64,000 bases of DNA from a phage. The stretch is from sequence record PZ445428.1. One strand, given 5' to 3'. Of the stretch, positions 17,964 to 63,518 are shown piece by piece; the first letter of the stretch is position 1, and each line of letters begins with the position of its first letter. Made by a program: the position numbers and the translations under genes. The notes under the pieces were generated by a model. It was given only the letters and a program-made list of their open reading frames with translations, made no database searches and had not been told where the DNA came from.

Positions 17964-18038
17964 CGGGGTGTAGTCTAAGGGATAGGCAGGAGTCTTCTAA
18001 ATTCCTTTATGCAGGTTCGAATCCTGTCACCTCGGCCA
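17964..18038 (+). tRNA. tRNA-Arg (anticodon TCT)
   Basis: Cloverleaf read by eye: acceptor CGGGGTG/CACCTCG, anticodon loop CTTCTAA, T-arm GCAGG-TTCGAAT-CCTGT, CCA encoded. Confidence 0.7.
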
Positions 18039-23851: not shown

Positions 23852-23880
23852 TTGCTAATTGCCGAAATTTTCTGTATAAT
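23852..23880 (+). promoter_or_regulatory. early promoter cassette upstream of tRNA genes (-35 TTGCTA, -10 TATAAT)
   Basis: Hexamers with 17-bp spacer; next feature is a tRNA. Confidence 0.6.
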
Positions 23881-23894
23881 ATATTCATAAATTC

Positions 23895-23988
23895 GGAAGA
23901 TTAACCCTAAAGGTAAGGGAGTTGTTTGCTAAACAACCAGTAGCTGTGGAGACACGGTGTATCAGTTCGAGTCTGGTATCTTCCTCCA
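23895..23988 (+). tRNA. tRNA-Ser (anticodon GCT)
   Basis: Acceptor GGAAGAT/ATCTTCC, anticodon loop TTGCTAA, long variable arm, T-loop TTCGAGT, CCA encoded. Confidence 0.75.
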
Positions 23989-23995
23989 AATTCAT

Positions 23996-24073
23996 GGTTC
24001 CTTAGCTCAATCAGGTTAGAGCATTCCCCTCATAAGGGACAGGTTCTCGGATCATACCCGAGAGGAGCCACCA
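23996..24073 (+). tRNA. tRNA with CAT anticodon (Met/fMet/Ile2 class)
   Basis: Acceptor GGTTCCT/AGGAGCC, anticodon loop CTCATAA, atypical T-loop ATCATAC, CCA encoded. Confidence 0.55.
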
Positions 24074-24090
24074 ATTAACTAGGAGACTTT

Positions 24091-24279
24091 ATGTCTAAAT
24101 TCCAAGAACTAATGAGAGAGTTGGGTGAGCATCGCTGCAAGGATTGTTATGGGTCTGGAGAGCAAAACGATGCAGAGCCTGGAGATACTCGATTCAATAA
24201 GTGGACTTGTCCTACCTGCGAAGGTACAGGTATCAACCCTCTTTACACTATTTCTATCTACGTGGGAATTGCTAAATAA
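24091..24279 (+). CDS. small zinc-ribbon protein (62 aa)
   Basis: ORF track; AGGAG RBS; CKDC...CPTCEGTG Cys pairs. Confidence 0.5.
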   Translation: MSKFQELMRELGEHRCKDCYGSGEQNDAEPGDTRFNKWTCPTCEGTGINPLYTISIYVGIAK

Positions 24280-24617
24280 TGGATATTTTTACTACTCCAG
24301 CAGTCAACCTTTTAGGTGTAGGTCTGTTCCAAGCTACCATCTATCGTACTGATGATTCTACTGATGTGGTAATGTTCATCGTACCTGAATTCTTCCTAGA
24401 AAAGTTCTTTGAAGAGTTTGAGCAGTTCCGTGAAGAACATAATGCTCACTCCGATATGGAAGATCTAGCAGCTATGTTCCCTGCAGTTTACGGCTATATC
24501 TTTGAAAGTAATGGTCTGGATCTTAATAAATCTGAGCTGGTCGAACTTAATTGGGGAATTAGTTTTGAAGTTGGCTCTCCATTCCCCCGATACTTCCAGG
24601 GTTTAGAGATCCGCTAA
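24279..24617 (+). CDS. hypothetical protein (112 aa)
   Basis: ORF track. Confidence 0.5.
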   Translation: MDIFTTPAVNLLGVGLFQATIYRTDDSTDVVMFIVPEFFLEKFFEEFEQFREEHNAHSDMEDLAAMFPAVYGYIFESNGLDLNKSELVELNWGISFEVGSPFPRYFQGLEIR

Positions 24618-24625
24618 GATTACAT

Positions 24626-24702
24626 GGGGGTGTAATCGAATTGGCATAGGTACTGGACTTAAAATTCAGGTTTTGTGGGTTCGAATCCCACCACCCCTAC
24701 CA
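24626..24702 (+). tRNA. tRNA with TAA anticodon (Leu-like D-loop, short variable loop)
   Basis: Acceptor GGGGGTG/CACCCCT, anticodon stem CTGGA/TTCAG loop CTTAAAA, T-arm GTGGG-TTCGAAT-CCCAC, CCA encoded; D-arm imperfect. Confidence 0.5.
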
Positions 24703-24719
24703 AATAAAAGGAAACTGAT

Positions 24720-24887
24720 ATGTATCAGAGACCGTCACCACCAGCTCGAAGATCAAGAGAAACTCTTTTGATGGAGTTGGCGAAAAACTTCAAGGCTAAA
24801 CTTGAAGACGATAATTTTACTACAGATGAAGATATTGACTTCATTTGCAAACTATTAAAAATGAAATTGGAGAAAAAACATGGCTAA
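24720..24887 (+). CDS. hypothetical protein (55 aa)
   Basis: Hand-translated ORF below track cutoff; stop overlaps next ATG. Confidence 0.3.
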   Translation: MYQRPSPPARRSRETLLMELAKNFKAKLEDDNFTTDEDIDFICKLLKMKLEKKHG

Positions 24888-25086
24888 TCCAGAAGTAGTT
24901 ACACAGCGTTTGCTGATTAAAGGTGTAGTAGCTGAAGCAGGTCTTACCGAAGCTGTTGCAGATTTTCAGGCACAGTTCACAGCTATTCTCACCCAAGCTA
25001 AAGAAACTGGTGCGGAGGAGTATGCTGCTGCAACTCTAGCGCTCACGTTAGCTGGACTTGATCTGGCAGAAGAAGCCGGAGTTTAA
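24880..25086 (+). CDS. hypothetical protein (68 aa)
   Basis: ORF track. Confidence 0.45.
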   Translation: MANPEVVTQRLLIKGVVAEAGLTEAVADFQAQFTAILTQAKETGAEEYAAATLALTLAGLDLAEEAGV

Positions 25087-25116
25087 CTCCTCCAAGCAGA
25101 AATTTTAAAAATGTAC

Positions 25117-25146
25117 TTGCTTTTTACTTAAGATTTCTGCTATAAT
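25117..25146 (+). promoter_or_regulatory. early promoter cassette (-35 TTGCTT, -10 TATAAT)
   Basis: Hexamers with 18-bp spacer. Confidence 0.55.
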
Positions 25147-25175
25147 AGTTATATAAATTGATGAGAGGAATCAGA

Positions 25176-25451
25176 ATGTCAAAACGTGTTACAGCAACTG
25201 GTATTGAAAGCTCAGTATGTAAATCCTGGGGTGGTTGGGAAGGTGAGATTGAATGGCTTTATTTCTACAATGTAGAACTTCTGCCTGAAATTAAAGCCCA
25301 CTGTATCGAAGCTGGTATGTCTCCTGATGCTAAAGCAGATATCGAAATTACTATGACTAAACTAGAAGGTCGTGTAATTACTGTTAGTGATGAAGGTGAA
25401 GAGGTCTTCGAACTTCCATTCACCTTGAAAGTCACTCCTTCGTTTGATTAA
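25176..25451 (+). CDS. hypothetical protein
   Basis: ORF track 25158..25451; start moved to ATG 25176 after GAGAGGAA. Confidence 0.5.
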   Translation: MSKRVTATGIESSVCKSWGGWEGEIEWLYFYNVELLPEIKAHCIEAGMSPDAKADIEITMTKLEGRVITVSDEGEEVFELPFTLKVTPSFD

Positions 25452-25460
25452 CTGATACAG

Positions 25461-25499
25461 CACTGAGCAAGTTCTTTAAAATTTGACTTGCTCAGTGCC
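25461..25499 (+). terminator. 13-bp inverted repeat hairpin overlapping the next promoter -35
   Basis: GCACTGAGCAAGT...ACTTGCTCAGTGC, perfect stem. Confidence 0.5.
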
Positions 25500-25516
25500 T
25501 TAAAACTTGATATAAT
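25488..25516 (+). promoter_or_regulatory. early promoter cassette upstream of tRNA cluster (-10 TATAAT)
   Basis: TTGCTC / TATAAT with 17-bp spacer; -35 lies in the 3' arm of the upstream hairpin. Confidence 0.5.
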
Positions 25517-25641
25517 AGTTATCTAATTTGGAAAACATATCTGAATGAGAAGTAACTAAGCGAGTTGCTTTGAGGGGTAAGGTCAGGATAGCCTGAAATA
25601 TTCCACCTTGAGTTTAACCGACTTACTTTTCATTCAAATAT

Positions 25642-25732
25642 GTTGGATTAGTATCGTAGAGGTAGCGAAGCAGACTGTAAATCTGCCGACTCGGAAGGGT
25701 CTCGGGTGGTTCGACTCCATCATCCAACACCA
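25642..25732 (+). tRNA. tRNA-Tyr (anticodon GTA)
   Basis: Acceptor GTTGGAT/ATCCAAC, anticodon loop CTGTAAA, long variable arm, T-loop TTCGACT, CCA. Confidence 0.75.
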
Positions 25733-25740
25733 AATTTAAT

Positions 25741-25815
25741 GCACCTATCGTCTATCGGTTAGGACATCAGGTTTTCAACCTGAGAAGCTCGGTTCGATTC
25801 CGTGTGGGTGTACCA
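25741..25815 (+). tRNA. tRNA-Glu (anticodon TTC)
   Basis: Acceptor GCACCTA/TGGGTGT, anticodon stem TCAGG/CCTGA loop TTTTCAA, T-loop TTCGATT, CCA. Confidence 0.6.
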
Positions 25816-25822
25816 AATTAAT

Positions 25823-25899
25823 GTTCTGCTAGACAAACAGGTAAAGTCCCTACCCTTTCAAGGTAGGGTTTGCGGGTTCGATCCCCGCACAGAACGCCA
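25823..25899 (+). tRNA. tRNA with TTC anticodon (second Glu-type)
   Basis: Acceptor GTTCTGC/ACAGAAC (one mismatch), anticodon stem CTACC/GGTAG loop CTTTCAA, T-arm GCGGG-TTCGATC-CCCGC, CCA. Confidence 0.55.
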
Positions 25900-25907
25900 T
25901 ATTCTGC

Positions 25908-25984
25908 ATTCCTAGAGTGTTACTGGACAGCATGTCGGTCTCCAAAACCGTACGGTCTAGGTTCGAGTCCTAGTAGGTTTGCCA
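25908..25984 (+). tRNA. tRNA-Trp candidate (anticodon CCA)
   Basis: Anticodon loop CTCCAAA, T-arm CTAGG-TTCGAGT-CCTAG, CCA encoded; acceptor stem has two T-T mismatches. Confidence 0.4.
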
Positions 25985-25990
25985 ATATTT

Positions 25991-26065
25991 GCACCTTTAG
26001 CTGAGATGGATTAGCGCTTGCCTGAAGAGCTTGAGAGGTTGGATCGTTACCAACGGGGTGCACCA
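25991..26065 (+). tRNA. tRNA candidate (anticodon GAA, Phe?)
   Basis: Perfect acceptor GCACCTT/GGGGTGC and D-arm; anticodon stem imperfect, loop CTGAAGA; atypical T-loop ATCGTTA; CCA. Confidence 0.45.
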
Positions 26066-26082
26066 ATTTGAAGGAGATGCTG

Positions 26083-26355
26083 ATGCATCCTGAAAACTTC
26101 TTTATATACTGTACTAGTCCTTTGCTTAAACGCCGGATTAATAAAGTATATCACTACAGAGCTAGTCAACAGCCTTATATTTATGATTCTAGTGGAGATC
26201 ACATTCCACTTGAGCAACTAGGGACTGATTATATGGTTTTGAAGCACTTTAATGAGGCAAAGATCTCAAGCGTTCATAACCGACAAAACTCTAAAACGTG
26301 GTGGTATAAGAAGCGTAAGAAAGGCATCAAATTTCTGAAAAATGTAGTTGCTTAA
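26083..26355 (+). CDS. hypothetical basic protein
   Basis: ORF track 26068..26355; start moved to ATG about 6 nt after AAGGAG. Confidence 0.45.
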   Translation: MHPENFFIYCTSPLLKRRINKVYHYRASQQPYIYDSSGDHIPLEQLGTDYMVLKHFNEAKISSVHNRQNSKTWWYKKRKKGIKFLKNVVA

Positions 26356-26376
26356 ATCCTTAAAGTTCTGTATAAT
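26348..26376 (+). promoter_or_regulatory. early promoter cassette (-35 TTGCTT, -10 TATAAT)
   Basis: Hexamers with 17-bp spacer; -35 overlaps upstream stop codon. Confidence 0.55.
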
Positions 26377-26404
26377 TATTACATAAATTGAACTGGAGAA
26401 CTAG

Positions 26405-26593
26405 ATGAAAGCACCTAAACCGAAATTAGTTAAGTTCGACTGCTGTGACACTGAAATCTTATTTACTAAGTTTGGTGAATTTAAGATGTGTGAATGTGGA
26501 ACATGTGGTTACGATCATGGTGATGGATATTATTGCAGAACCCTCGGGCCTTCTGAACTAATCCACTTCTCATGGCCGGAAAGTAAAGAATAA
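26405..26593 (+). CDS. small Cys-rich protein (62 aa)
   Basis: ORF track; CCDT...CECGTCGYDHGDGYYC. Confidence 0.45.
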   Translation: MKAPKPKLVKFDCCDTEILFTKFGEFKMCECGTCGYDHGDGYYCRTLGPSELIHFSWPESKE

Positions 26594-26595
26594 TA

Positions 26596-26671
26596 CGACC
26601 GTTGGCTGAATGGCTTAGGCGGGGGCCTGCAAAACCTCCTTATGTGAGTTCGAATCTCATGCGGTCGTCCA
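26596..26671 (+). tRNA. tRNA-Cys (anticodon GCA)
   Basis: Acceptor CGACCGT/GCGGTCG, anticodon loop CTGCAAA, T-loop TTCGAAT, CCA. Confidence 0.6.
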
Positions 26672-26678
26672 AATTTAT

Positions 26679-26761
26679 GGGTCGTTAGCCAAGCGGTTTG
26701 GCGGTGGACTGTTAATCCATGTCGAAAGACAACGTAGGTTCGAATCCTGCACGGCCCGCCA
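26679..26761 (+). tRNA. tRNA with GTT (Asn) anticodon and 13-nt variable arm
   Basis: Acceptor GGGTCGT/ACGGCCC, D-stem GCCA/TGGC, anticodon stem GTGGA/TCCAT loop CTGTTAA, variable hairpin GTC-GAAA-GAC, T-loop TTCGAAT, CCA. Confidence 0.55.
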
Positions 26762-26789
26762 TTTTTCACTAAAAACTGAGGAAATAGAT

Positions 26790-26975
26790 ATGACAACTCA
26801 TGCAATTGCTCGACTAGAAGCTGATCGCGATAGTATTAAGAACAATATTAAAGTTCGTGATCAAATCATTAAGGTTTTAAAGGCAGAACTGCTTGAAGAA
26901 CTTCAACATCAAGTAGATCGTCGTGAGTCTTTAAAAGAAGTCGAGGAAGCTCTGTCTAAACTCAAAGCTGAATAA
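26790..26975 (+). CDS. hypothetical coiled-coil protein (61 aa)
   Basis: ORF track. Confidence 0.45.
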   Translation: MTTHAIARLEADRDSIKNNIKVRDQIIKVLKAELLEELQHQVDRRESLKEVEEALSKLKAE

Positions 26976-26984
26976 ACAAATTAT

Positions 26985-27061
26985 GCGATCGGGGCTGGCT
27001 TGGTAATGGTACTCCCCTGTCACGGGAGAGAATGTGGGTTCGAATCCCATCGGTCGCGCCA
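26985..27061 (+). tRNA. tRNA-Asp (anticodon GTC)
   Basis: Acceptor GCGATCG/CGGTCGC, anticodon stem CTCCC/GGGAG loop CTGTCAC, T-loop TTCGAAT, CCA. Confidence 0.7.
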
Positions 27062-27067
27062 AATTAT

Positions 27068-27143
27068 ACATCCATAGCTCAATGGTTAGAGCTACCGCCT
27101 CTTAAGCGGAGGGTTCTAGGTTCAAGTCCTAGTGGGTGTACCA
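27068..27143 (+). tRNA. tRNA-Lys (anticodon CTT)
   Basis: Acceptor ACATCCA/TGGGTGT, D-arm GCTC..GAGC, anticodon loop CTCTTAA, T-loop TTCAAGT, CCA. Confidence 0.65.
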
Positions 27144-27149
27144 AATACT

Positions 27150-27237
27150 GGGGTCTTAGCTAATCGGTTAAGCGTCATGGATAGCGGTGAATTCCGGCCT
27201 ATGAAGGGAGTAACACGTAGTCTCCCAGACTCCACCA
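27150..27237 (+). ncRNA. tRNA-like element (88 nt) with canonical acceptor and D-arm but no canonical T-loop
   Basis: GGGGTCT...AGACTCC-A-CCA acceptor pairing; D-arm GCT-AATCGGTTA-AGC; remainder does not fold as standard cloverleaf. Confidence 0.3.
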
Positions 27238-27487
27238 AATTTCAGTGCAGAACACGGAGCTAGCAATTCGGAAGTGCTGACGCGCGATAAGCTGCCTATG
27301 TACTTGCAAAGCGGACGTGTCCTAGACTCGGACTCTTGCACTGAAACCAATTAAACATTCTAGCGTGGTGGAGAGGGGACACCAGCTTGCCGAGGGTAGA
27401 AGCTCGTTCGATTCGAGTGAAAGAATGGTTCTCGTAAATCCGCACAAGTGATAGTAGGTTCAAGTCCTGCCTAGATTGACTTATTAT

Positions 27488-27561
27488 GCGTCCATAGTTA
27501 AAAGGTATAATTTCTGGTTGCCAACCAGATGTTGAGAGTTCGATTCTCTCTGGCCGCACCA
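27488..27561 (+). tRNA. tRNA-Gly (anticodon GCC)
   Basis: Acceptor GCGTCCA/TGGCCGC (one mismatch), anticodon stem TCTGG/CCAGA loop TTGCCAA, T-arm GAGAG-TTCGATT-CTCTC, CCA. Confidence 0.65.
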
Positions 27562-27808
27562 AATTTAGGTTTATGCTTCCTAGAGAACGTACTCCTAAAT
27601 AAACAAGGCGATGAGTTTCCGGCCGGTTCTAGTCGCTGAAAATCCTCCCGACCAGGTAGGTGTAGGTAAACGAAAGTTTACTTATTAAGTAAGTCCGACA
27701 CATCGGCGGGTGTGTTCTAGTATTTAAAGAAGGTCTCGCAAACTTTCTCGCTAGCATGAGTTCATAGCTCGGTGACTTACCTAATAAGTAAATTTATTAA
27801 AAATGTAA

Positions 27809-27837
27809 TTGCTATTTAGCTTAATTCTCTGTATAAT
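27809..27837 (+). promoter_or_regulatory. early promoter cassette (-35 TTGCTA, -10 TATAAT)
   Basis: Hexamers with 17-bp spacer. Confidence 0.6.
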
Positions 27838-27869
27838 ATATTTTATAAAGTGATGAGAAGGAAAGCAAA

Positions 27870-28028
27870 GTGAAATTAAAAATTGCAGATGTACTTATGT
27901 GTACTTGGGTAATTCCAATCATAATTGTTGGTTTTAACGCAGATATACTTTCCACAGCGTGGAAGATTGTAGGGCTAAGTACAGGGTTCACAATGCTAGG
28001 GTTAAGCATGTTGTGGACGAAAAACTAA
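27870..28028 (+). CDS. small hydrophobic protein (52 aa), GTG start
   Basis: Hand-translated ORF after cassette RBS GAAGGAAAG; below track cutoff. Confidence 0.3.
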   Translation: MKLKIADVLMCTWVIPIIIVGFNADILSTAWKIVGLSTGFTMLGLSMLWTKN

Positions 28029-28032
28029 TATT

Positions 28033-28109
28033 CTCCGATTAGCTCAATTGGCTAGAGTACACCGTTTGGGGTGGTGGGGTTGAAGGTTCGAGTCCTTCAT
28101 TGGAGACCA
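28033..28109 (+). tRNA. tRNA-Pro (anticodon TGG)
   Basis: Acceptor CTCCGAT/ATTGGAG, anticodon stem CACCG/TGGTG loop TTTGGGG, T-arm GAAGG-TTCGAGT-CCTTC, CCA. Confidence 0.6.
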
Positions 28110-28124
28110 AATAAGAGGTTAATA

Positions 28125-28277
28125 ATGCGTCATTTAAATAGGCAAAAAACAAAAGCACCTAAAAGGTTTAAGACTTGGTGCGGTTGTGATAGAGAACTCG
28201 TTTCTCTAGGAGAGAAATGTTCTGTTTGTGGTGTACGCTTTGTTAAGTTCAAACAAAGATTTAAATTTGCGAGTTAG
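28125..28277 (+). CDS. small zinc-ribbon protein (50 aa)
   Basis: ORF track 28071..28277 trimmed to ATG after AAGAGG (track 5' part overlaps tRNA-Pro); CGCD...CSVCG. Confidence 0.4.
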   Translation: MRHLNRQKTKAPKRFKTWCGCDRELVSLGEKCSVCGVRFVKFKQRFKFAS

Positions 28278-28345
28278 ATCTCTGGTAGAGATCACTAGTC
28301 TCATAAGCTAGTAAGAGGTCGGTTCGATTCCGACACTCGCATCCA
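28268..28345 (+). tRNA. tRNA with CAT anticodon (Met/fMet/Ile2 class)
   Basis: Acceptor TGCGAGT/ACTCGCA, D-stem GATC/GATC, anticodon stem CTAGT/GCTAG loop CTCATAA, T-loop TTCGATT, CCA. Confidence 0.65.
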
Positions 28346-28356
28346 AAAAGTATTAA

Positions 28357-28434
28357 GGGTTGCTAGCTCAACTGGTTTAGAGCACTGGTCTTTTAAACCA
28401 TAGGTTACAGGTTCGAGTCCTGTGCAACCCACCA
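28357..28434 (+). tRNA. tRNA-Lys (anticodon TTT)
   Basis: Acceptor GGGTTGC/GCAACCC, anticodon loop CTTTTAA, T-arm ACAGG-TTCGAGT-CCTGT, CCA. Confidence 0.7.
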
Positions 28435-28438
28435 AATT

Positions 28439-28512
28439 GCTCGGTTAGTTTAATGGGAGAACCCCGTCTTTACACGGCGGTTGCGATAGTTCGATTCTAT
28501 CACCGAGTACCA
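28439..28512 (+). tRNA. tRNA-Val (anticodon TAC)
   Basis: Acceptor GCTCGGT/ACCGAGT, anticodon stem CCGTC/GGCGG loop TTTACAC, T-arm GATAG-TTCGATT-CTATC, CCA. Confidence 0.65.
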
Positions 28513-28536
28513 CTTAACTAAAATAAGGAATTGCAA

Positions 28537-28896
28537 ATGCAATTATCATCTAAAGTTCAAGGTTTCTTCACACATGCAACAGCAGAATTTGCTATTAGCA
28601 AGGGTTGGGACTTTGAGCAAGAACTTTCTGAGTTCTATAAAGATATAGATATGAATACACCATACATGGCCTTAGCTTCTGGACAAGAGTTCTCAGAAGG
28701 TGATCTTTTCAAGGCAAGTCAAGGCGAGGTAACGCCTGGTTTTGCCGCTTTTTGGAGTGGCTTCACAATTAAAGAAGAAGCTCCAGATGATGATGTATTT
28801 ATGCAAAGCATGCACTCTGGGAGTTCTGATATGTTATTCGTTAAAGATGTACGACATATCCAAGAAGTGGTAAAAACGTATTTGCAAAATGCTTAA
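28537..28896 (+). CDS. hypothetical protein (119 aa)
   Basis: ORF track 28531..28896; start moved to ATG after TAAGGAA. Confidence 0.55.
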   Translation: MQLSSKVQGFFTHATAEFAISKGWDFEQELSEFYKDIDMNTPYMALASGQEFSEGDLFKASQGEVTPGFAAFWSGFTIKEEAPDDDVFMQSMHSGSSDMLFVKDVRHIQEVVKTYLQNA

Positions 28897-28910
28897 TTTC
28901 TTGTTATAAT
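28882..28910 (+). promoter_or_regulatory. early promoter cassette (-35 TTGCAA, -10 TATAAT) driving ORF-free leader plus tRNAs
   Basis: Hexamers with 17-bp spacer; -35 overlaps upstream stop. Confidence 0.55.
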
Positions 28911-29150
28911 ATTTATATAAATTGATGGGGAGAAATCCTCATCAAAGTTCACTAAGGTATTAGCTCGACCTAGGACTGGCTGCCACCAAGCACGATCCCT
29001 ACGACTCGGGAGAAGTTCTAGATTAGTCCACTAGATTCAGCGGCAACTGAATAGTGTATCGGGTTTGTGAAGAGCGGGTATCCAAGCCTGGCTAATGGCA
29101 CTGGGTATTACGCACACCGAGCTAATAGCCTTAGTAAACTTGAAGAATTT

Positions 29151-29225
29151 GGGCGAATAGTGTCAGCGGGAGCACACCAGACTTGCAATCTGGTAGGGAG
29201 GGTTCGAGTCCCTCTTTGTCCACCA
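29151..29225 (+). tRNA. tRNA-Ala (anticodon TGC)
   Basis: Acceptor GGGCGAA/TTTGTCC, anticodon stem CCAGA/TCTGG loop CTTGCAA, T-arm GAGGG-TTCGAGT-CCCTC, CCA. Confidence 0.65.
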
Positions 29226-29231
29226 AATTTT

Positions 29232-29307
29232 GGGGTCATAGGTTATTTGGTTAAACTTACTGCCTTGCAAGCAGTAGAACTCAGTTCAATTCTGAGTGAC
29301 TCCACCA
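29232..29307 (+). tRNA. tRNA with TGC anticodon (second Ala-type)
   Basis: Acceptor GGGGTCA/TGACTCC, anticodon stem ACTGC/GCAGT loop CTTGCAA, T-arm CTCAG-TTCAATT-CTGAG, CCA. Confidence 0.6.
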
Positions 29308-29326
29308 AACAAATTAAGGAAATAAT

Positions 29327-29545
29327 ATGGTATTCTTAGCAGCCTCTGTAGTTCTTGCATCTTTAGCGTTAGCTATCTATTTTAGAACTGCTAAAGATTT
29401 ATCTAAAGAAAAGAAAACTTTCTTTACTGATTACTCTTGGGGTGCTCCATACGCTATCAATTCTATCAGTCTAGAAGCTATGTTGATAATGGTATTCAGT
29501 GGTATAGGTTCTATCGTTGCTGGATTACTTTTTATTTCTAACTAA
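29327..29545 (+). CDS. small membrane protein (72 aa)
   Basis: ORF track; two hydrophobic helices. Confidence 0.45.
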   Translation: MVFLAASVVLASLALAIYFRTAKDLSKEKKTFFTDYSWGAPYAINSISLEAMLIMVFSGIGSIVAGLLFISN

Positions 29546-29552
29546 ACAAAAT

Positions 29553-29633
29553 GGGGATGTGGCGAAATTGGCAGACGCGCTAGATTTAGGTTCTAGTCTT
29601 CGGGTGTGGGTTCGAGTCCCTCCATCCCTACCA
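29553..29633 (+). tRNA. tRNA-Leu (anticodon TAG)
   Basis: Acceptor GGGGATG/CATCCCT, Leu-type D-loop GAAATTGGCAGAC, anticodon stem CTAGA/TCTAG loop TTTAGGT, extended variable region, T-loop TTCGAGT, CCA. Confidence 0.65.
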
Positions 29634-29653
29634 TTTTAAAATAGGATTAATTA

Positions 29654-29818
29654 ATGTTAAAGATGCCAGTAAAACATATTTGGTTAGCTAGAAATAGGGC
29701 TACTAATGAATTTGTCTTTATTGATACAGGAATGACATATGATCAACGAATATATGATCTTCTGTATTCCGTGTCTGCTGAAGAAGTACACAAATTAATT
29801 CTAAAAGATGCAACATAA
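29654..29818 (+). CDS. hypothetical protein (54 aa)
   Basis: Hand-translated ORF between two tRNAs; weak RBS; below track cutoff. Confidence 0.3.
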   Translation: MLKMPVKHIWLARNRATNEFVFIDTGMTYDQRIYDLLYSVSAEEVHKLILKDAT

Positions 29819-29820
29819 TT

Positions 29821-29913
29821 GGAAGAGCAAATCGACTTGGTGACGAAAACCGCTTGGAAAGTGGCTGACTTGTGAAAGCAGGCTTGAGAGTTCGAATCTC
29901 TCTTCTTCCGCCA
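29821..29913 (+). tRNA. tRNA-Ser (anticodon GGA)
   Basis: Acceptor GGAAGAG/TTCTTCC, 3-bp D-stem, anticodon loop TTGGAAA, long variable arm, T-arm GAGAG-TTCGAAT-CTCTC, CCA. Confidence 0.65.
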
Positions 29914-29920
29914 AACAATT

Positions 29921-30010
29921 GGAAGTACGGGCGTAGTGGTATGCAACTAGTCTTGAAAACTAGCCCGCTGTAGCGATATGGTGATGGTTCGACTCCATGT
30001 GCTTCCGCCA
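29921..30010 (+). tRNA. tRNA-Ser (anticodon TGA)
   Basis: Acceptor GGAAGTA/TGCTTCC, anticodon stem CTAGT/ACTAG loop CTTGAAA, long variable arm, T-loop TTCGACT, CCA. Confidence 0.7.
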
Positions 30011-30016
30011 AATCTT

Positions 30017-30145
30017 GGAATATGCCGGAATTGGTAGACGGGACTGCCGAATAGGTTTACTAGGAACATCCACTCCTAGAAATATACCTTAAAAGCGGTT
30101 GAGTTAAATGGTCTAACTCGTGAAGGTTCAAGTCCTTCTATTCCT
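30017..30145 (+). tRNA. oversized tRNA-Leu(TAA)-like gene (~129 nt) with ~40-nt insertion in anticodon arm; possible intron-containing or disrupted tRNA
   Basis: Acceptor GGAATA/TATTCC, Leu-type D-arm CCG-GAATTGGTAGA-CGG, T-arm GAAGG-TTCAAGT-CCTTC, variable hairpin GAGTTA...TAACTC, anticodon stem ACTGC/GCGGT enclosing CTTAAAA loop plus inserted hairpin CTAGGA...TCCTAG; no CCA. Confidence 0.35.
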
Positions 30146-30395
30146 TGATACATCAATGGCTCAAAGAGTAACGGTGCACCTTTCTAGAGAATTTCCTGGG
30201 CGAGAATCCAGGTGTAATCAACTAGTCGTTAGTGTGATGAGTTTCGGAGAGCCGCCACAATTGAAGATCATTGTCTGTTTGAGTCTACCATTTAGGGTCG
30301 TTACTTGTAGCGCCTATCTGCTAGGTCTAATCACTAGGTAAAGGCATGCAAGCTTCTAGTGTAGAGAGTTCGCTACTCCTCGATGGTTTTCAATT

Positions 30396-30472
30396 GTGGC
30401 TATATCATAATTGGTTAATGATCCTGATTGTGAATCAGGCCTATGTGGATTCGAGTTCCACTAGCCACCCCA
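30396..30472 (+). tRNA. tRNA-His (anticodon GTG)
   Basis: Acceptor GTGGCTA/TAGCCAC, anticodon stem CCTGA/TCAGG loop TTGTGAA, T-arm GTGGA-TTCGAGT-TCCAC, CCA. Confidence 0.75.
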
Positions 30473-30478
30473 AATATT

Positions 30479-30553
30479 GCGTCCTTATTTCAACGGAAAG
30501 AATGTAAAGCTACGAACTTTACGATCGGGGTTCGATTCCCTGAGGATGCACCA
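30479..30553 (+). tRNA. tRNA-Arg (anticodon ACG)
   Basis: Acceptor GCGTCCT/AGGATGC, anticodon stem TAAAG/CTTTA loop CTACGAA, T-loop TTCGATT, CCA. Confidence 0.7.
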
Positions 30554-30577
30554 ATTAACTTAAACAGGAAAATAATA

Positions 30578-30778
30578 ATGGCTGATTTCTGTAAAGAATG
30601 CTCTATCGATATGTGGGGCAAAGATACACAAGATCTTTCTGGTCTTATCACTGAAGCTGAAGTTAAAGAAGGCTATGGTGCTGTAGTAATCTGCGAAGGT
30701 TGTGGTATTATCCGTGTTGATCATGAAGGCAAACGCCTTGAAGAACCTGAGCCAATCGCAACGGTTCCTGTAGAGTAA
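30578..30778 (+). CDS. small zinc-ribbon protein (66 aa)
   Basis: ORF track 30443..30778 trimmed to ATG after AGGAAAATAATA (5' part of track ORF overlaps two tRNAs); CKEC...CEGCG. Confidence 0.5.
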   Translation: MADFCKECSIDMWGKDTQDLSGLITEAEVKEGYGAVVICEGCGIIRVDHEGKRLEEPEPIATVPVE

Positions 30779-30786
30779 CAAATTAT

Positions 30787-30862
30787 TGGGATGTAGATCA
30801 ATTGGCAGATCGTCGGCCTCTGACTCCGAAGGTTCCTGGTTCGATCCCAGGCATCCCAGCCA
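30787..30862 (+). tRNA. tRNA-Gln (anticodon CTG)
   Basis: T1-A72 acceptor TGGGATG/CATCCCA (Gln-like), anticodon loop CTCTGAC, T-arm CCTGG-TTCGATC-CCAGG, CCA. Confidence 0.65.
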
Positions 30863-30868
30863 AACAAT

Positions 30869-30944
30869 TGGAGAATAGTGTAGTGGTTCGCACAACGGCC
30901 TTTGACTCCGTTAGTGGTAGGTTCAATTCCTCCTTCTCCTGCCA
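30869..30944 (+). tRNA. tRNA-Gln (anticodon TTG)
   Basis: Acceptor (T)GGAGAA/TTCTCC(T), anticodon loop CTTTGAC, T-loop TTCAATT, CCA. Confidence 0.6.
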
Positions 30945-30950
30945 ATTTAT

Positions 30951-31025
30951 GCGTGATTAGTTCAGTGGCTAGAATAACTGGCTTCCAACCAGTAGACACG
31001 AGTTCGACTCTCGTATCCCGCACCA
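30951..31025 (+). tRNA. tRNA-Gly (anticodon TCC)
   Basis: Acceptor GCGTGAT/ATCCCGC, anticodon stem ACTGG/CCAGT loop CTTCCAA, T-arm ACGAG-TTCGACT-CTCGT, CCA. Confidence 0.7.
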
Positions 31026-31039
31026 AATAAGGAAACGTT

Positions 31040-31261
31040 ATGCACGTTTTTGAGTTTCGTAATAAAAGCCCCAATAGACGCGTTTTGATTATTGGTGAAA
31101 CATATCGAGCTTACGAGCAAGAAGATGGTTCAGTTTTACTAAACGATGAAAAGCAAGGTTATAGCTTTCATCCAGAAGAAACGTATGAAGAGTTTCGTAC
31201 TAAGTTTCTTTTACCAGACTGGCTAGCAGTAGCCGAGCAACGAGAATCCGAAGATGGCTGA
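31040..31261 (+). CDS. hypothetical protein (73 aa)
   Basis: ORF track; AAGGAAA RBS. Confidence 0.5.
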   Translation: MHVFEFRNKSPNRRVLIIGETYRAYEQEDGSVLLNDEKQGYSFHPEETYEEFRTKFLLPDWLAVAEQRESEDG

Positions 31262-31427
31262 TAACCTGAAACTAAAGGTTGACAAACAGAAGAAACGTGT
31301 AGAGATTGAGCTTGGTGACGAACGCCTAGCACTATCCTTCGAGTTTCTTCAGCAGTTGGCGATGACAGTAATGTCTGATAAGTCTCCTGTATTTGAAAAA
31401 GAAATCCCGTTGAAATGACGGGTTTAT

Positions 31428-31502
31428 TGCTCCTAAAGCATTGCTGGCGATGCAGTTGCCTTGTAAGCATCTGAACCGGGTTCGATTCCTGGTGGGAGCA
31501 CC
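31428..31502 (+). tRNA. tRNA-Thr (anticodon TGT)
   Basis: Acceptor GCTCCTA/TGGGAGC, D-stem GCAT/ATGC, anticodon loop CTTGTAA, T-arm CCGGG-TTCGATT-CCTGG, CCA. Confidence 0.65.
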
Positions 31503-31517
31503 AAATTTAAAAATTCA

Positions 31518-31546
31518 TTTGCCTTCTCTCTTATTTCTTGTTATAA
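31518..31546 (+). promoter_or_regulatory. early promoter cassette (-35 TTGCCT, -10 TATAAT)
   Basis: Hexamers with 17-bp spacer. Confidence 0.55.
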
Positions 31547-31577
31547 TATTTATATAAATTAATGAGAGGGAAACCAA

Positions 31578-31871
31578 ATGAAACGTTATCTTTCTGTCGT
31601 GTTCCAAACTGGTGGTCAGCGTTATACCTACGAATTTCCAGAGTCTTGGAAAATCAAAGAAGGTGATCAGGTTGTTGTACTGACACCGCGTGAAGGCTTC
31701 AAAGTGGTTACGGTTAAACAAGTATTTCCTAAAGATCACGAACCATCTAAATCTATTAATTATAAGATGATTCATGGTCTGGTACGAAAAGTACCACGGA
31801 CGGAAGTTGAAGTAGATAAAGATGGTGAAGCTAAATACCAGTATACTTCTTACCTAGACGAGATGCGATAA
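31578..31871 (+). CDS. hypothetical protein (97 aa)
   Basis: ORF track; cassette RBS GAGAGGGAA. Confidence 0.55.
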   Translation: MKRYLSVVFQTGGQRYTYEFPESWKIKEGDQVVVLTPREGFKVVTVKQVFPKDHEPSKSINYKMIHGLVRKVPRTEVEVDKDGEAKYQYTSYLDEMR

Positions 31872-32095
31872 TGAGAATTACCTTTACTGAGAAGATAATA
31901 TGTAATGGGATTATGATCATTACAGCGTGGGAAGGTAAACAATGGTGCAGTATAACGGGTCTTAAAGCAGAAGATCAAACACCAGAAAACATTCTCAAAA
32001 TAAAACAAAACATGGCAAAACATGCTAAACGTCCTGGTGCTCCTAGGAATGGCATACGTTTTGCAGCAAAATGCTCCGATAGTTCAAACGGTTAG
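31871..32095 (+). CDS. hypothetical protein (74 aa)
   Basis: ORF track; 3' end overlaps tRNA-Ile by about 20 nt, so the call is uncertain. Confidence 0.35.
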   Translation: MRITFTEKIICNGIMIITAWEGKQWCSITGLKAEDQTPENILKIKQNMAKHAKRPGAPRNGIRFAAKCSDSSNG

Positions 32096-32148
32096 AACAG
32101 GCGACCGATAATCGTCAAATCTTGGTTCGATCCCAAGTTGGAGTACCA
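32073..32148 (+). tRNA. tRNA-Ile (anticodon GAT)
   Basis: Acceptor GCTCCGA/TTGGAGT, anticodon stem GGCGA/TCGTC loop CCGATAA, T-arm CTTGG-TTCGATC-CCAAG, CCA. Confidence 0.65.
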
Positions 32149-32192
32149 AAACAACGGAGAGTCACTACCGTAAGTGTGAAGTTGAAAAATAT

Positions 32193-32268
32193 AGTTAGTT
32201 GGCAGATCGGTTATGCACCTCCTTCATACGGAGCGATCAGAGTGGTTCGATTCCACTACTAACTACCA
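32193..32268 (+). tRNA. tRNA with CAT anticodon (Met/fMet/Ile2 class)
   Basis: Acceptor AGTTAGT/ACTAACT, anticodon loop TTCATAC, T-arm AGTGG-TTCGATT-CCACT, CCA. Confidence 0.6.
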
Positions 32269-60923: not shown

Positions 60924-61031
60924 TATCCCACACACCCCGCCATTGCCGCAATAAACCAAACTACGAAAATTAGAAATAGTACAGTCCCGAATCCGAAACT
61001 ATTTATCCAACTCTCGTACACTTCCCCTCTT

Positions 61032-61310
61032 TTATTTCTTCTGTTGTCGTTTGACATCTCTTTGCTTCTCCTGTAAGCCTGGTATTTGGAAGATCCTAGA
61101 TATTGCACGAACCATTACGACTGTCCCGATAAGATCCATTACTTCATCGAAGCCGGATTCTTCTAGTAAGAAGGATGTTCCCATAACATCTTCCATTGTA
61201 TCTTGTATGACGTCTTGAATAATTTCGTTTATTGCATCATGTATTGCCTTTGTCTTGGGATCTAACTCTAGAGGTAGAGGTTCCTGAAAAGGCTTATCAT
61301 TTTCTTGCAT
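61032..61310 (-). CDS. hypothetical acidic protein (92 aa)
   Basis: ORF track. Confidence 0.4.
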   Translation of the reverse strand: MQENDKPFQEPLPLELDPKTKAIHDAINEIIQDVIQDTMEDVMGTSFLLEESGFDEVMDLIGTVVMVRAISRIFQIPGLQEKQRDVKRQQKK

Positions 61311-61384
61311 TGTGTTTGCTACCTGTACCTCATCCCAAAAATAAAAATTTTTGTTTACTTCGAGATCTTTTTAATTTATACTAA

Positions 61385-61651: not shown

Positions 61652-61734
61652 TTTAGTTCTCCAGTTCAATTTATAAATATATTATAACAAAATAATAGGA
61701 ACAGAGCAACTACATTTTTAATTTAGGAGATTGT

Positions 61735-63507: not shown

Positions 63508-63518
63508 AGGAGGTAATT

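What the first reader, a model, noticed from the sequence alone, without database searches (positions are those of the whole stretch)
23895..32268. Unusually large and redundant tRNA complement (about 30 genes, several duplicate anticodons, three CAT tRNAs)
By-eye folding finds tRNAs for at least Ser x3, Leu x2-3, Arg x2, Gly x2, Gln x2, Lys x2, plus apparent duplicates for TTC (Glu) and TGC (Ala) and three CAT tRNAs (candidate initiator Met, elongator Met and Ile2). Several have atypical T-loops (ATCATAC, ATCGTTA) or acceptor mismatches. Duplicates with different backbones could be isoacceptor mimics or anti-defence decoys against anticodon nucleases.
Basis: partly seen in the sequence, partly recalled or inferred. 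Interest (0 to 1): 0.4.

Follow-up and report, generated by a model that had tools for sequence, protein, structure and literature searches.

The report
T5-like phage tRNA gene cluster
This stretch is the well-known, already annotated cluster of about 30 working tRNA genes carried by T5-like phages (here phage TrudiGerster/Bas27), which lets the phage keep making protein on its own codon preferences and when the host's tRNAs are destroyed by defence nucleases; it is real, but ordinary for this phage family.

Summary
Window 23895-32268 carries 30 tRNA genes, and a 31st (Arg-TCT) lies at 17964. All sit on the + strand, all encode 3' CCA, and together they cover all 20 amino acids. The odd T-loops ATCATAC and ATCGTTA are also there.

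The window is 100% identical to Escherichia phage TrudiGerster (Bas27, Demerecviridae), whose GenBank record annotates the same 31 tRNAs. Phage T5 has a syntenic array. Other T5-like loci carry 22-29 tRNAs in the same place, usually with three CAT tRNAs.

The duplicates are not pseudogenes. Each copy belongs to an allele lineage that is the only Glu tRNA, or one of the Ala tRNAs, in other phages, and these lineages keep the cloverleaf through compensatory changes.

The anti-defence idea is already published for T5-like phages, as nuclease-resistant or over-supplied replacement tRNAs rather than decoys. This phage's Lys-UUU tRNA is identical to the T5 tRNA that neutralises PARIS. Its Tyr tRNA contains the exact 26-nt sequence targeted by the published probe for the SP15 tRNA-Tyr that rescues phage from retron-Eco7.

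Verdict: already known, low interest. A few small structural oddities are worth recording.

The parts
17964..18038 (+). tRNA-Arg(TCT). Lies outside the finding's interval and is the 31st tRNA of the phage.
   Evidence: ARAGORN; Rfam 49.3 bits; GenBank bas27_0083.
23895..23988 (+). tRNA-Ser(GCT), long variable arm, discriminator U73.
23996..24073 (+). CAT1: a CAU tRNA in the slot that T5 annotates as tRNA-Ile2. T-loop ATCATAC (A54/U58). A rare allele.
24626..24702 (+). tRNA-Leu(TAA), 77 nt. It has a 5-nt variable loop (class-I-like) but a Leu-type D arm and A73.
25642..25732 (+). tRNA-Tyr(GTA). Contains the exact 26-nt target of the published SP15 phage tRNA-Tyr probe. Anticodon stem-loop identical to E. 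coli tyrU.
   Evidence: PMC11555353.
25741..25815 (+). tRNA-Glu(TTC) copy a. Belongs to the SuperGirl-type allele lineage. Keeps the E. coli Glu D-stem (U11-A24, U13-G22) and a 4-nt variable loop; discriminator A73.
25823..25899 (+). tRNA-Glu(TTC) copy b. T5-type allele (92% identical). Has G1-C72, U2-A71 and G73.
25908..25984 (+). tRNA-Trp(CCA) with two conserved UxU mismatches in the acceptor stem.
25991..26065 (+). tRNA-Phe(GAA), T-loop ATCGTTA (A54/U58).
   Evidence: Rfam 33.4 bits; ARAGORN.
26596..26671 (+). tRNA-Cys(GCA).
26679..26761 (+). tRNA-Asn(GTT), 83 nt, with a short extra arm.
26985..27061 (+). tRNA-Asp(GTC).
27068..27143 (+). tRNA-Lys(CTT). No Lys(CUU) gene was among the host tRNA clusters fetched; that E. 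coli K-12 has none at all rests on my own knowledge.
27488..27561 (+). tRNA-Gly(GCC).
28033..28109 (+). tRNA-Pro(TGG), 99% identical to the T5 allele.
28268..28345 (+). CAT2: initiator-like CAU tRNA, 90% identical to T5 'tRNAfM'. Has A11:U24 and G2-C71/C3-G70/G4-C69. This copy has U1-A72 and U73.
28357..28434 (+). tRNA-Lys(TTT), 100% identical to the T5 tRNA-Lys that resists PARIS AriB (A39, C41).
   Evidence: PMC11464382; PMC12409363.
28439..28512 (+). tRNA-Val(TAC).
29151..29225 (+). tRNA-Ala(TGC) copy a, 100% identical to T5 tRNA-Ala. G3:U70 and A73.
29232..29307 (+). tRNA-Ala(TGC) copy b, Epseptimavirus allele (99-100% identical in SuperGirl, SB10 and Kp150049). G3:U70 and A73.
29553..29633 (+). 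tRNA-Leu(TAG), shortened 9-nt variable region.
29821..29913 (+). tRNA-Ser(GGA).
   Evidence: ARAGORN relaxed; GenBank.
29921..30010 (+). tRNA-Ser(TGA).
   Evidence: ARAGORN relaxed; GenBank.
30396..30472 (+). tRNA-His(GTG), C73, no encoded G-1.
30479..30553 (+). tRNA-Arg(ACG).
30787..30862 (+). tRNA-Gln(CTG).
30869..30944 (+). tRNA-Gln(TTG).
30951..31025 (+). tRNA-Gly(TCC).
31429..31503 (+). tRNA-Thr(TGT). Has G39 in place of the U39 of the AriB recognition motif.
   Evidence: PMC12409363.
32073..32148 (+). tRNA-Ile(GAT) with C33 (loop CCGATAA).
32193..32268 (+). CAT3: elongator tRNA-Met type, 91% identical to T5 tRNA-Met. U4-A69 and A5-U68 as in E. coli tRNA-Met.
30014..30157 (+). Homologue of T5 'RNA1', a tRNA-like stable RNA of unknown function. 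It includes a sub-threshold tRNA-like fold at 30078-30146.
   Evidence: 96% identity over 144 nt; Rfam tRNA 24 bits; ARAGORN 91.2.
27356..27480 (+). Homologue of T5 'RNA2', a tRNA-like stable RNA.
   Evidence: 89% identity over 125 nt.
28958..29070 (+). Homologue of T5 'RNA2H' stable RNA.
   Evidence: 95% identity over 113 nt.
23852..23880 (+). T5-consensus-type promoter-like site (TTGCTA-17-TATAAT) just upstream of the first tRNA. Similar sites occur at 27809 and 28882.
   Evidence: Consensus match only; the overall count is not above shuffles.

Best explanation
This is the tRNA gene region of a T5-like phage, Escherichia phage TrudiGerster/Bas27 (Demerecviridae, Epseptimavirus). It holds 30 functional tRNA genes, 31 with Arg-TCT upstream, interspersed with small ORFs and tRNA-like stable-RNA genes.

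By analogy with T5, the genes are transcribed from early T5-type promoters as multi-gene precursors. All encode CCA, so they can mature without CCA addition.

The 26 distinct anticodons decode all 20 amino acids and about 55 of the 61 sense codons. This gives the phage a nearly self-sufficient decoding set, which does two things:
1. It matches the phage's A/U-rich codon usage. AGA, CUA, AUA, AAG and ACA are 2-6 times enriched over the host and each has a phage tRNA.
2. It keeps phage translation running when host tRNAs are cleaved by tRNA-targeting defences. Some members are uncleavable variants: Lys-UUU has A39/C41 and Thr-UGU has G39, both in the AriB site. Others probably work by sheer supply, as for Tyr.

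The same-anticodon pairs (Glu-UUC x2, Ala-UGC x2) arose by recombination. It brought together two allele lineages that circulate separately among T5-like phages. Both copies are intact tRNAs.

Shown here: gene calls, identity to the published genome and to experimentally tested T5/SP15 tRNAs, conservation and covariation, and codon statistics. Inferred: expression, charging identity and anti-defence activity in this particular phage.
For: - Identity and annotation: 100% identity over 8.5 kb to MZ501108, whose annotation lists the same tRNAs.
- Synteny with the curated T5 array, including the Ile2/fMet/Met CAU slots.
- Gene calls from ARAGORN and Rfam.
- All 31 end in CCA, and 26 of 31 discriminator bases match the E. 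coli cognate.
- The phage tRNAs are only 59-80% identical to their host cognates, so they are not recent captures.
- Across homologues from 41 T5-like loci (7 GenBank, 34 IMG/VR) 87-100% of stem cells stay paired (at least 93% in all but four families), with up to 16 pairs per tRNA changed on both sides. This includes Glu_a (8 pairs), Ala_a (12) and Ala_b (12).
- Glu_a is the only Glu tRNA in SuperGirl. Glu_b is the only one in T5, SB10, AKFV33 and Kp150049.
- The tandem Glu_a+Glu_b pair occurs only in TrudiGerster and GSW6 among 627 matching records.
- Lys-UUU is 100% identical to the T5 tRNA-Lys. That tRNA is uncleaved by AriB because of U39A and A41C (PMC11464382, PMC12409363).
- Thr-UGU carries G39.
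- The Tyr tRNA holds the exact 26-nt target of the SP15 tRNA-Tyr probe (PMC11555353).
- Codon usage and decoding coverage.
Against: - There are no expression, charging or infection data for this phage.
- The codon-compensation signal is weak as a whole (Mann-Whitney one-sided p = 0.09).
- Asn-GUU keeps the host-like AriB motif UAAUCC, and the Tyr anticodon stem-loop is identical to the host's. Not every member is therefore a resistant variant.
- Several members lack canonical identity elements. His has no G-1. Both Gly tRNAs have A73. Glu_a has A73 and G1-U72. CAT2 has a U1-A72 pair and lacks the three G-C pairs in the anticodon stem. Some charging assignments are therefore uncertain.
- T5 deletion mutants that lack most of the array are viable on laboratory hosts (PMC11464382), so the array is accessory.
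Confidence: 0.85

Rival explanations
1. Codon-usage compensation only. The array exists solely to supply tRNAs for codons that the AT-rich phage uses more than its GC-richer host, with no role in immunity evasion.
For: The phage ORFs are enriched relative to an E. coli gene sample for AGA (6.3x), AGG (5.4x), CTA (3.7x), ATA (2.5x), AAG (2.2x) and ACA (2.2x). Each of these codons is read by a phage tRNA. The six uncovered codons are C- or G-ending and make up only 3.5% of phage codons.
Against: The association between cognate tRNA and codon enrichment is not significant overall (p = 0.09). The set also includes tRNAs for codons the phage uses less than the host does (GGC 0.35x, AGC 0.56x, CAG 0.73x). 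Published experiments show that T5-type Lys/Thr/Asn and Tyr tRNAs are needed specifically in the presence of PARIS or retron-Eco7 (PMC11464382, PMC12409363, PMC11555353), and the Lys gene here is identical to the tested one.
Confidence: 0.1
2. Decoys or mimics. The extra same-anticodon copies are not used in translation but act as bait that titrates anticodon nucleases, or as mimics charged with a different amino acid.
For: The two Glu and two Ala copies have very different backbones. Glu_a lacks G1-C72/U2-A71/G73, and Glu_b lacks the E. coli-type D-stem. T5-type tRNA-Ala (identical to Ala_a) is reported to be cut efficiently by the Schlafen nuclease RorSlfn5 (PMC13056530).
Against: Both Ala copies carry the AlaRS determinant G3:U70 plus A73. 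Each Glu type is the only Glu tRNA in other T5-like phages, so each must decode there. All copies encode CCA and keep their cloverleaf stems through compensatory change. In the published cases rescue needs a translationally competent tRNA (anticodon or stem mutants fail, PMC11555353), and the resistant tRNA is not consumed (PMC11464382).
Confidence: 0.03
3. Degenerating duplicates. The atypical tRNAs (odd T-loops, acceptor mismatches, duplicates) are pseudogenes in decay.
For: Rfam scores are low for Tyr (32.6), Phe (33.4), Trp (36.3) and Cys (38.0 bits). T5 itself has a disrupted tRNA-Gln(CUG) pseudogene and tRNA-like stable RNAs in this region.
Against: The odd features are conserved or covary. 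The A54/U58 T-loop is kept in four diverged CAT1 alleles whose anticodon stems carry compensatory changes. A54 always comes with U58: 3 of 3 non-canonical T-loops among 617 tRNAs, with none singly substituted. The Trp UxU mismatches are kept in an allele that differs elsewhere. C33 of Ile is kept in four variants.
Confidence: 0.02

Closest known systems
tRNA gene region of bacteriophage T5 (AY543070; 23-24 tRNAs plus stable RNAs and HNH endonuclease genes)
   Same: Gene order is the same: Arg ... Ser-GCU, CAU(Ile2), Tyr, Glu, Trp, Phe, Cys, Asn, Asp, Pro, fMet, Lys, Val, Ala, Leu, Ser, Ser, His, Gln, Gln, Gly, Thr, Ile, Met. Lys-UUU and Ala are identical, Pro is 99% identical, and fMet, Met, Glu and Phe are 90-92% identical. 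Homologues of RNA1, RNA2, RNA2H and RNAX are present.
   Different: TrudiGerster has seven more tRNAs: Leu-UAA, a second Glu, Lys-CUU, Gly-GCC, a second Ala, Arg-ACG and an intact Gln-CUG. It has no HNH endonuclease genes inside the array. It carries different alleles of Tyr, Asn, Trp, Ser-GCU, Ile-GAU and the first CAU tRNA.
tRNA arrays of other Epseptimavirus phages (SuperGirl/Bas29, SB10, Klebsiella phage 150049, EPS7, Stitch)
   Same: The backbone is 82-90% identical. Most tRNAs are 95-100% identical, the flanks are the same (NadR/PnuC-like genes upstream, GrcA-like gene downstream), and two Ala-TGC and three CAT tRNAs are common.
   Different: The exact allele mix differs. The tandem Glu_a+Glu_b pair is shared only with Salmonella phage GSW6. 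Excluding TrudiGerster's own two records, the CAT1 allele is found full-length in five other records from four phages. The T5-type Ala_a+Ala_b tandem is covered at 80% or more in only 3 of 438 matching records.
Anti-defence phage tRNAs: T5 tRNA-Lys/Thr/Asn against PARIS AriB, and T5/SP15 tRNA-Tyr against retron-Eco7 PtuAB
   Same: The Lys-UUU gene is identical, with the protective A39/C41. Thr-UGU is also changed at position 39. The Tyr tRNA carries the SP15 probe sequence exactly.
   Different: Nothing has been tested in this phage. Its Asn allele keeps the host-like AriB motif, unlike the T5 Asn allele.
Large tRNA arrays of other lytic phages (T4 with 8 tRNAs; cluster C1 mycobacteriophages, about 33 tRNAs on average according to PMC10264068)
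   Same: These are also clustered tRNA genes in a virulent phage, diverged from the host's, with anticodon-loop positions 32/38 often changed (PMC10264068).
   Different: Unrelated phage lineage and independent gene sets.

Membership tests
Canonical tRNA genes (Rfam RF00005 / ARAGORN cloverleaf) | Covariance-model score at or above the gathering threshold (29 bits), or an ARAGORN cloverleaf call with an anticodon | tested here: met
   28 of 30 score 32.6-69.2 bits. The two long-arm Ser tRNAs are called by ARAGORN at a relaxed threshold and by tRNAscan-SE in GenBank.
Canonical tRNA genes (Rfam RF00005 / ARAGORN cloverleaf) | Stems maintained by compensatory change in homologues | tested here: met
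   87-100% of cells paired (at least 93% in all but Ser-GCT, Gly-TCC, Ser-TGA and Arg-TCT). Up to 16 pairs per tRNA are changed on both sides. Caveat: the homologues were themselves selected by ARAGORN.
Canonical tRNA genes (Rfam RF00005 / ARAGORN cloverleaf) | Universal nucleotides U33, T54 and A58 | tested here: inconclusive
   Met in 28 of 31. The exceptions are Ile-GAT with C33, and CAT1 and Phe with A54/U58. All three exceptions are conserved in relatives, so they are variants rather than decay.
tRNA gene region of T5-like phages (Demerecviridae) | Sequence identity or synteny with the tRNA region of T5 and its relatives | tested here: met
   100% identity to TrudiGerster, 82-90% to other Epseptimavirus phages, and the same gene order as T5.
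tRNA gene region of T5-like phages (Demerecviridae) | Array of about 20-30 tRNAs with three CAU tRNAs | tested here: met
   Related loci carry 22-29 tRNAs, mostly with CAT x3.
PARIS-neutralising tRNA-Lys(UUU) of T5 | A39 and C41 in place of the host U39 and A41 at the AriB site | tested here: met
   Anticodon stem-loop CTGGT-CTTTTAA-ACCAT against host GTTGA-CTTTTAA-TCAAT. The whole gene is 78/78 identical to T5.
PARIS-neutralising tRNA-Lys(UUU) of T5 | Not cleaved by AriB and rescues infection | not testable with these tools
   Shown for the identical T5 sequence in PMC11464382 and PMC12409363.
Retron-Eco7-countering phage tRNA-Tyr (SP15/T5) | Same tRNA-Tyr sequence type as SP15 | tested here: met
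   The 26-nt probe target is present with 0 mismatches at 25686-25711. Only the probe region could be compared.
Retron-Eco7-countering phage tRNA-Tyr (SP15/T5) | Unusually strong promoter driving tRNA-Tyr | tested here: inconclusive
   The simple sigma-70 scan found no site with at least 9 of 12 matches directly upstream of 25642.
Bacterial initiator tRNA-fMet (for CAT2, 28268) | No Watson-Crick pair at 1:72 | tested here: not met
   This copy has U1-A72. The T5 homologue has UxU and the KKP_3711 homologue has CxU.
Bacterial initiator tRNA-fMet (for CAT2, 28268) | A11:U24, with G2-C71, C3-G70 and G4-C69 | tested here: met
   D-stem GATC/GATC and acceptor TGCG.../...CGCA. CAT1 and CAT3 have the elongator-type C11:G24.
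Bacterial initiator tRNA-fMet (for CAT2, 28268) | Three consecutive G-C pairs at the bottom of the anticodon stem | tested here: not met
   The stem is CTAGT/GCTAG.
tRNA-Ile2 (CAU converted to lysidine; for CAT1, 23996) | E. coli TilS acceptor-stem determinants C4-G69 and C5-G68 (from my own knowledge of Ikeuchi et al. 2005) | tested here: inconclusive
   CAT1 has U4-A69 and C5-G68. The top five acceptor pairs GGTTC/GAGCC are identical to the T5 'tRNAI2(CAU)'.
tRNA-Ile2 (CAU converted to lysidine; for CAT1, 23996) | Lysidine at position 34 and charging with Ile | not testable with these tools
   Indirect support only: ATA is 2.5x enriched in the phage and no other tRNA in the set reads it.
tRNA-Ala (both TGC copies) | G3:U70 wobble pair and A73 | tested here: met
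   Ala_a is GGGCGAA/TTTGTCC and Ala_b is GGGGTCA/TGACTCC, both followed by A73.

The most novel reading that the evidence does not exclude
The structural diversity inside the array may be adaptive bet-hedging against host nucleases that read tRNA body sequence rather than the anticodon, and not mere recombination debris.

- Same-anticodon pairs have different anticodon stems. Ala_a has the T5-type stem reported as Schlafen-sensitive, while the lower three pairs of Ala_b's stem match the host's. Glu_a and Glu_b likewise differ.
- The T54:A58 pair is swapped to A54:U58 in CAT1 and Phe.
- Ile has C33.
- Leu has lost its long arm, while Asn has gained one.
- His lacks G-1.

On this reading each variant removes a recognition element of some tRNase or host enzyme while keeping decoding.
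Probability: 0.15. Interest if true: 0.45.

Novelty: already known. Interest (0 to 1): 0.13.

Why it matters
It matters little as a discovery. The genome is published (BASEL collection, Bas27), the tRNAs are annotated, and both proposed functions of T5-like tRNA arrays are in the literature.

Its modest value is as a well-resolved example. It shows that the array is a mosaic of interchangeable tRNA alleles. This phage carries the exact PARIS-resistant tRNA-Lys. Several rule-breaking but conserved tRNA features exist here (A54:U58 T-loops, C33, a short-arm tRNA-Leu, a tRNA-His without G-1), and these could be used to probe what host tRNases and tRNA-handling enzymes actually recognise.

Tried and rejected
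- ARAGORN at default missed Phe and two Ser tRNAs. Rfam with default filters missed His. Neither reflects absence.
- Two relaxed ARAGORN calls were set aside. A minus-strand 'tRNA-Thr' at 20555-20638 (score 91.7) lies inside the annotated minus-strand CDS bas27_0089, has no Rfam hit, and I judged it a false positive. 'tRNA-Stop(tta)' at 30078-30146 is a sub-threshold tRNA-like fold inside the T5 RNA1 homologue, not a suppressor tRNA gene.
- BLAST of CAT1 against seven related loci found nothing. This first suggested a unique gene, but a database-wide search found the allele in four other phages.
- The sigma-70 promoter scan gave no more sites than shuffled sequence (35 against 33 +/- 5.8), so transcription units were not mapped.
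- A literature search for A54/U58 T-loops found nothing relevant.
- I considered recent capture of host tRNA genes and rejected it, because identity to E. coli cognates is only 59-80%.
- The protein-homology, structure-prediction and metagenome tools were not needed.

Full report
**What is there**

ARAGORN on the whole window finds 29 tRNA genes, all on the + strand and all between 17.3 and 32.3 kb. 27 of them lie inside 23895-32268. Rfam's tRNA model independently finds 29, with E-values down to 5e-13. The two lists differ only at the margins. Rfam adds Phe-GAA (25991, 33.4 bits). With default filters it loses His, which scores 58.6 bits once the filters are relaxed. Both miss two long-arm Ser tRNAs, which ARAGORN recovers at a relaxed threshold. 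The union is 30 genes in the interval plus Arg-TCT at 17964.

- three Ser (GCT, GGA, TGA);
- two Leu (TAA, TAG);
- two each of Gly, Gln and Lys;
- two Glu-TTC and two Ala-TGC;
- three CAT.

Only one Arg (ACG) is inside the interval. The T-loops ATCATAC (first CAT tRNA) and ATCGTTA (Phe) and the acceptor mismatches are real. All 31 genes end in CCA, and 26 of 31 discriminator bases equal those of the E. coli cognate. The tRNA genes occupy 2358 of the 8374 bases. They sit in tight runs with 4-11 nt spacers, separated by small ORFs.

**Where it comes from**

The region is 100% identical over 8.5 kb to Escherichia phage TrudiGerster (Bas27, MZ501108; Demerecviridae, Markadamsvirinae, Epseptimavirus). 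This is a T5-like phage of the BASEL collection. 518 phage records, almost all T5-like, match at 80-95%. The GenBank record annotates the same 31 tRNAs. According to the BASEL paper they were predicted with tRNAscan-SE (PMC8594841).

The curated T5 record (AY543070) shows the same gene order in the opposite orientation. It has 23-24 tRNAs, HNH endonuclease genes and several 'stable RNAs of unknown function'. In about 25 full-length T5-like loci from IMG/VR the same 10 kb holds 22-29 ARAGORN tRNAs, against 29 for the window by that criterion. Three CAT tRNAs are the rule, two TGC occur in three loci, and two TTC occur only here. The complement is therefore at the top of the family's normal range, not outside it.

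**The three CAT tRNAs**

In T5 the three slots are annotated tRNA-Ile2(CAU), initiator tRNA-fMet and elongator tRNA-Met.

- CAT3 (32193) is 91% identical to T5 tRNA-Met. It has U4-A69 and A5-U68, like E. coli tRNA-Met.
- CAT2 (28268) is 90% identical to T5 'tRNAfM'. It alone has the initiator-type A11:U24, and it shares G2-C71, C3-G70 and G4-C69 with E. coli tRNA-fMet. This copy has a U1-A72 pair, whereas the T5 homologue has UxU and the KKP_3711 homologue CxU. It has U73 and lacks the three G-C pairs of the anticodon stem. It is initiator-like rather than a textbook initiator.
- CAT1 (23996) sits in the Ile2 slot and shares the top five acceptor pairs (GGTTC/GAGCC) with T5 tRNA-Ile2, but its body is a different allele. 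Eight records match it full-length, two of them TrudiGerster's own. Its four diverged versions keep the ATCATAC/ATCATTC T-loop while the anticodon stem changes by compensatory substitutions. ATA is 2.5x enriched in the phage and no other tRNA in the set reads it. This fits an Ile2 role, but lysidine formation cannot be tested here.

**The duplicates**

Both Ala-TGC copies have the alanine determinant G3:U70 plus A73. Ala_a is 100% identical to the single T5 tRNA-Ala. Ala_b is 99-100% identical to the second Ala of SuperGirl, SB10 and Klebsiella phage 150049.

Glu_b is 92% identical to the only Glu tRNA of T5, SB10, AKFV33 and Kp150049. Glu_a is 83% identical to the only Glu tRNA of SuperGirl, and 78-79% identical to Glu tRNAs of a Klebsiella phage and a Pectobacterium phage of the same family.

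Each Glu type keeps a different subset of the E. coli GluRS elements. That these are GluRS identity elements rests on my own knowledge of Sekine et al. 1996.
- Glu_a keeps the D-stem GTCT/GGAC and a 4-nt variable loop.
- Glu_b keeps G1-C72, U2-A71 and G73.

Both lineages keep the cloverleaf through compensatory change. Glu_a has 8 pairs changed on both sides with 100% of cells paired; Ala_a and Ala_b have 12 pairs each. The tandem Glu_a+Glu_b pair is found only in TrudiGerster and Salmonella phage GSW6 among 627 matching records. Only 3 of 438 records cover at least 80% of the T5-type Ala_a+Ala_b tandem.

The array as a whole is a mosaic. Pro, Lys-UUU and Ala_a are T5-type at 99-100% identity, set in an Epseptimavirus backbone whose own Pro and Lys alleles are only 72-80% identical. 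The duplicates are therefore two live allele lineages brought together by recombination. They are not decaying copies.

**What the array does**

The phage tRNAs are 59-80% identical to their E. coli cognates, so they are old phage genes. The 26 anticodons cover all 20 amino acids. Under standard wobble rules they read 55 of 61 codons. The six codons left out are C- or G-ending and make up 3.5% of phage codons.

Compared with a 39-gene E. coli sample, long ORFs of the window over-use A/U-ending codons. The codons most enriched among those with a cognate tRNA (AGA 6.3x, CTA 3.7x, ATA 2.5x, AAG 2.2x, ACA 2.2x) each have a phage tRNA. Taken over all codons the association is weak (p = 0.09).

The anti-defence role is published for this family:
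- PARIS AriB cuts host tRNA-Lys(UUU), Thr(UGU) and Asn(GUU) at U36-A-A-U39-C40|A41. The T5 tRNA-Lys is uncleavable because of U39A and A41C. T5 Lys, Thr and Asn tRNAs together neutralise PARIS (PMC11464382, PMC12409363).
- Retron-Eco7 PtuAB depletes tRNA-Tyr, and the T5/SP15 tRNA-Tyr rescues infection. Rescue fails if the anticodon or stems are mutated (PMC11555353).

The genes in this window compare as follows:
- Lys-UUU is 78/78 identical to the T5 gene.
- Thr-UGU has G39.
- Asn-GUU keeps the host-like UAAUCC.
- The Tyr tRNA contains the exact 26-nt target of the SP15 tRNA-Tyr probe. Its anticodon stem-loop is identical to host tyrU, which fits the 'over-supply' mechanism proposed for Tyr.

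'Decoy' is the wrong mechanism: these are replacement tRNAs. [quoted passage not shown]

**Why alleles differ so much**

One possible driver is intron-less homing. The T5 HNH endonuclease genes F-TflI, II and IV lie inside its tRNA cluster (PMC2330249). TrudiGerster has none inside the array. Another possible driver is diversifying selection by tRNases that read the anticodon stem. AriB cuts at 40/41 and Schlafen RorSlfn5 at 30/31. RorSlfn5 is reported to cut T5 tRNA-Ala, which is identical to Ala_a, more efficiently than the host tRNA (PMC13056530). The lower three pairs of Ala_b's anticodon stem (TGC/GCA) are the same as the host's. Whether carrying both copies is bet-hedging or a neutral recombination product cannot be decided here.

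**Verdict**

The feature is a known, annotated, family-typical tRNA array. Interest is low. What remains mildly new is a set of conserved rule-breaking tRNA features, listed under the in-passing items.

Noticed in passing
window 24046-24052 (CAT1 T-loop ATCATAC) and 26040-26046 (Phe T-loop ATCGTTA); also L006:15107 and L006:8009: The near-universal T54:A58 reverse-Hoogsteen pair is swapped to A54:U58 in two tRNAs. The T5 Phe allele has a near-identical body with a canonical TTCAATT loop. Among 617 tRNAs of T5-like loci, 614 are T54/A58, 3 are A54/T58 and none is singly substituted. The same swap occurs in Ile-GAT and Phe of Pectobacterium phage DU_PP_V. A search of the held open-access library found nothing on this swap.
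   Followed up: partly
window 32073-32148 (Ile-GAT), loop at about 32105-32111: The anticodon loop is CCGATAA, with C33 in place of the near-universal U33. This is conserved in four sequence variants of the allele. Other T5-like Ile-GAT alleles have CTGATAA.
   Followed up: partly
window 24626-24702 (Leu-TAA), 29553-29633 (Leu-TAG), 26679-26761 (Asn-GTT); L041:8891 (Thr-TGT): The class I/II architecture is shuffled. Leu-TAA has only a 5-nt variable loop (77 nt) but keeps a Leu-type 3-bp D-stem, an 11-nt D-loop and A73. Leu-TAG has a 9-nt variable region. Asn carries a 3-bp extra arm (83 nt). Some related phages have a Thr-TGT with a long extra arm.
   Followed up: partly
window 30395-30472 (His-GTG): The base before G1 is T, so G-1 is not genome-encoded. 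G-1 is the main E. coli HisRS identity element, a point I take from my own knowledge. All 32 T5-like tRNA-His copies matched by the search pattern have T at -1, whereas E. coli hisR has G.
   Followed up: partly
window 25908-25984 (Trp-CCA): Two UxU mismatches (2:71 and 3:70) in the acceptor stem are conserved in all alleles seen, including one that differs elsewhere by compensatory changes.
   Followed up: partly
window 17344-17417 (+ strand), about 550 nt upstream of Arg-TCT: A tRNA-like element scores 36.2 bits on the Rfam tRNA model. It has an acceptor stem and a canonical T-arm, but no CCA, and a short stem with a tetraloop in place of the anticodon arm. It is conserved with compensatory changes in T5 (inside 'RNAX'), SuperGirl, SB10 (annotated there as tRNA-Sec TCA), AKFV33 and Pectobacterium phage DU_PP_V (annotated as a tRNA-OTHER pseudogene). 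The TrudiGerster record instead annotates a minus-strand hypothetical CDS (bas27_0082) across it.
   Followed up: partly
window 30014-30157, 27356-27480, 28958-29070, 17309-17950: These are homologues of the T5 'stable RNAs of unknown function': RNA1 (96%), RNA2 (89%), RNA2H (95%) and parts of RNAX. None is annotated in the TrudiGerster record.
   Followed up: partly
window about 63519-64000: With the offset found for the tRNA region (record = window + 50661), the window end would map to 114661, beyond the end of the 114179-bp linear record. The window may therefore wrap to the record start or come from another assembly. TrudiGerster was not among the four listed full-coverage hits for window 61000-64000.
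   Followed up: no
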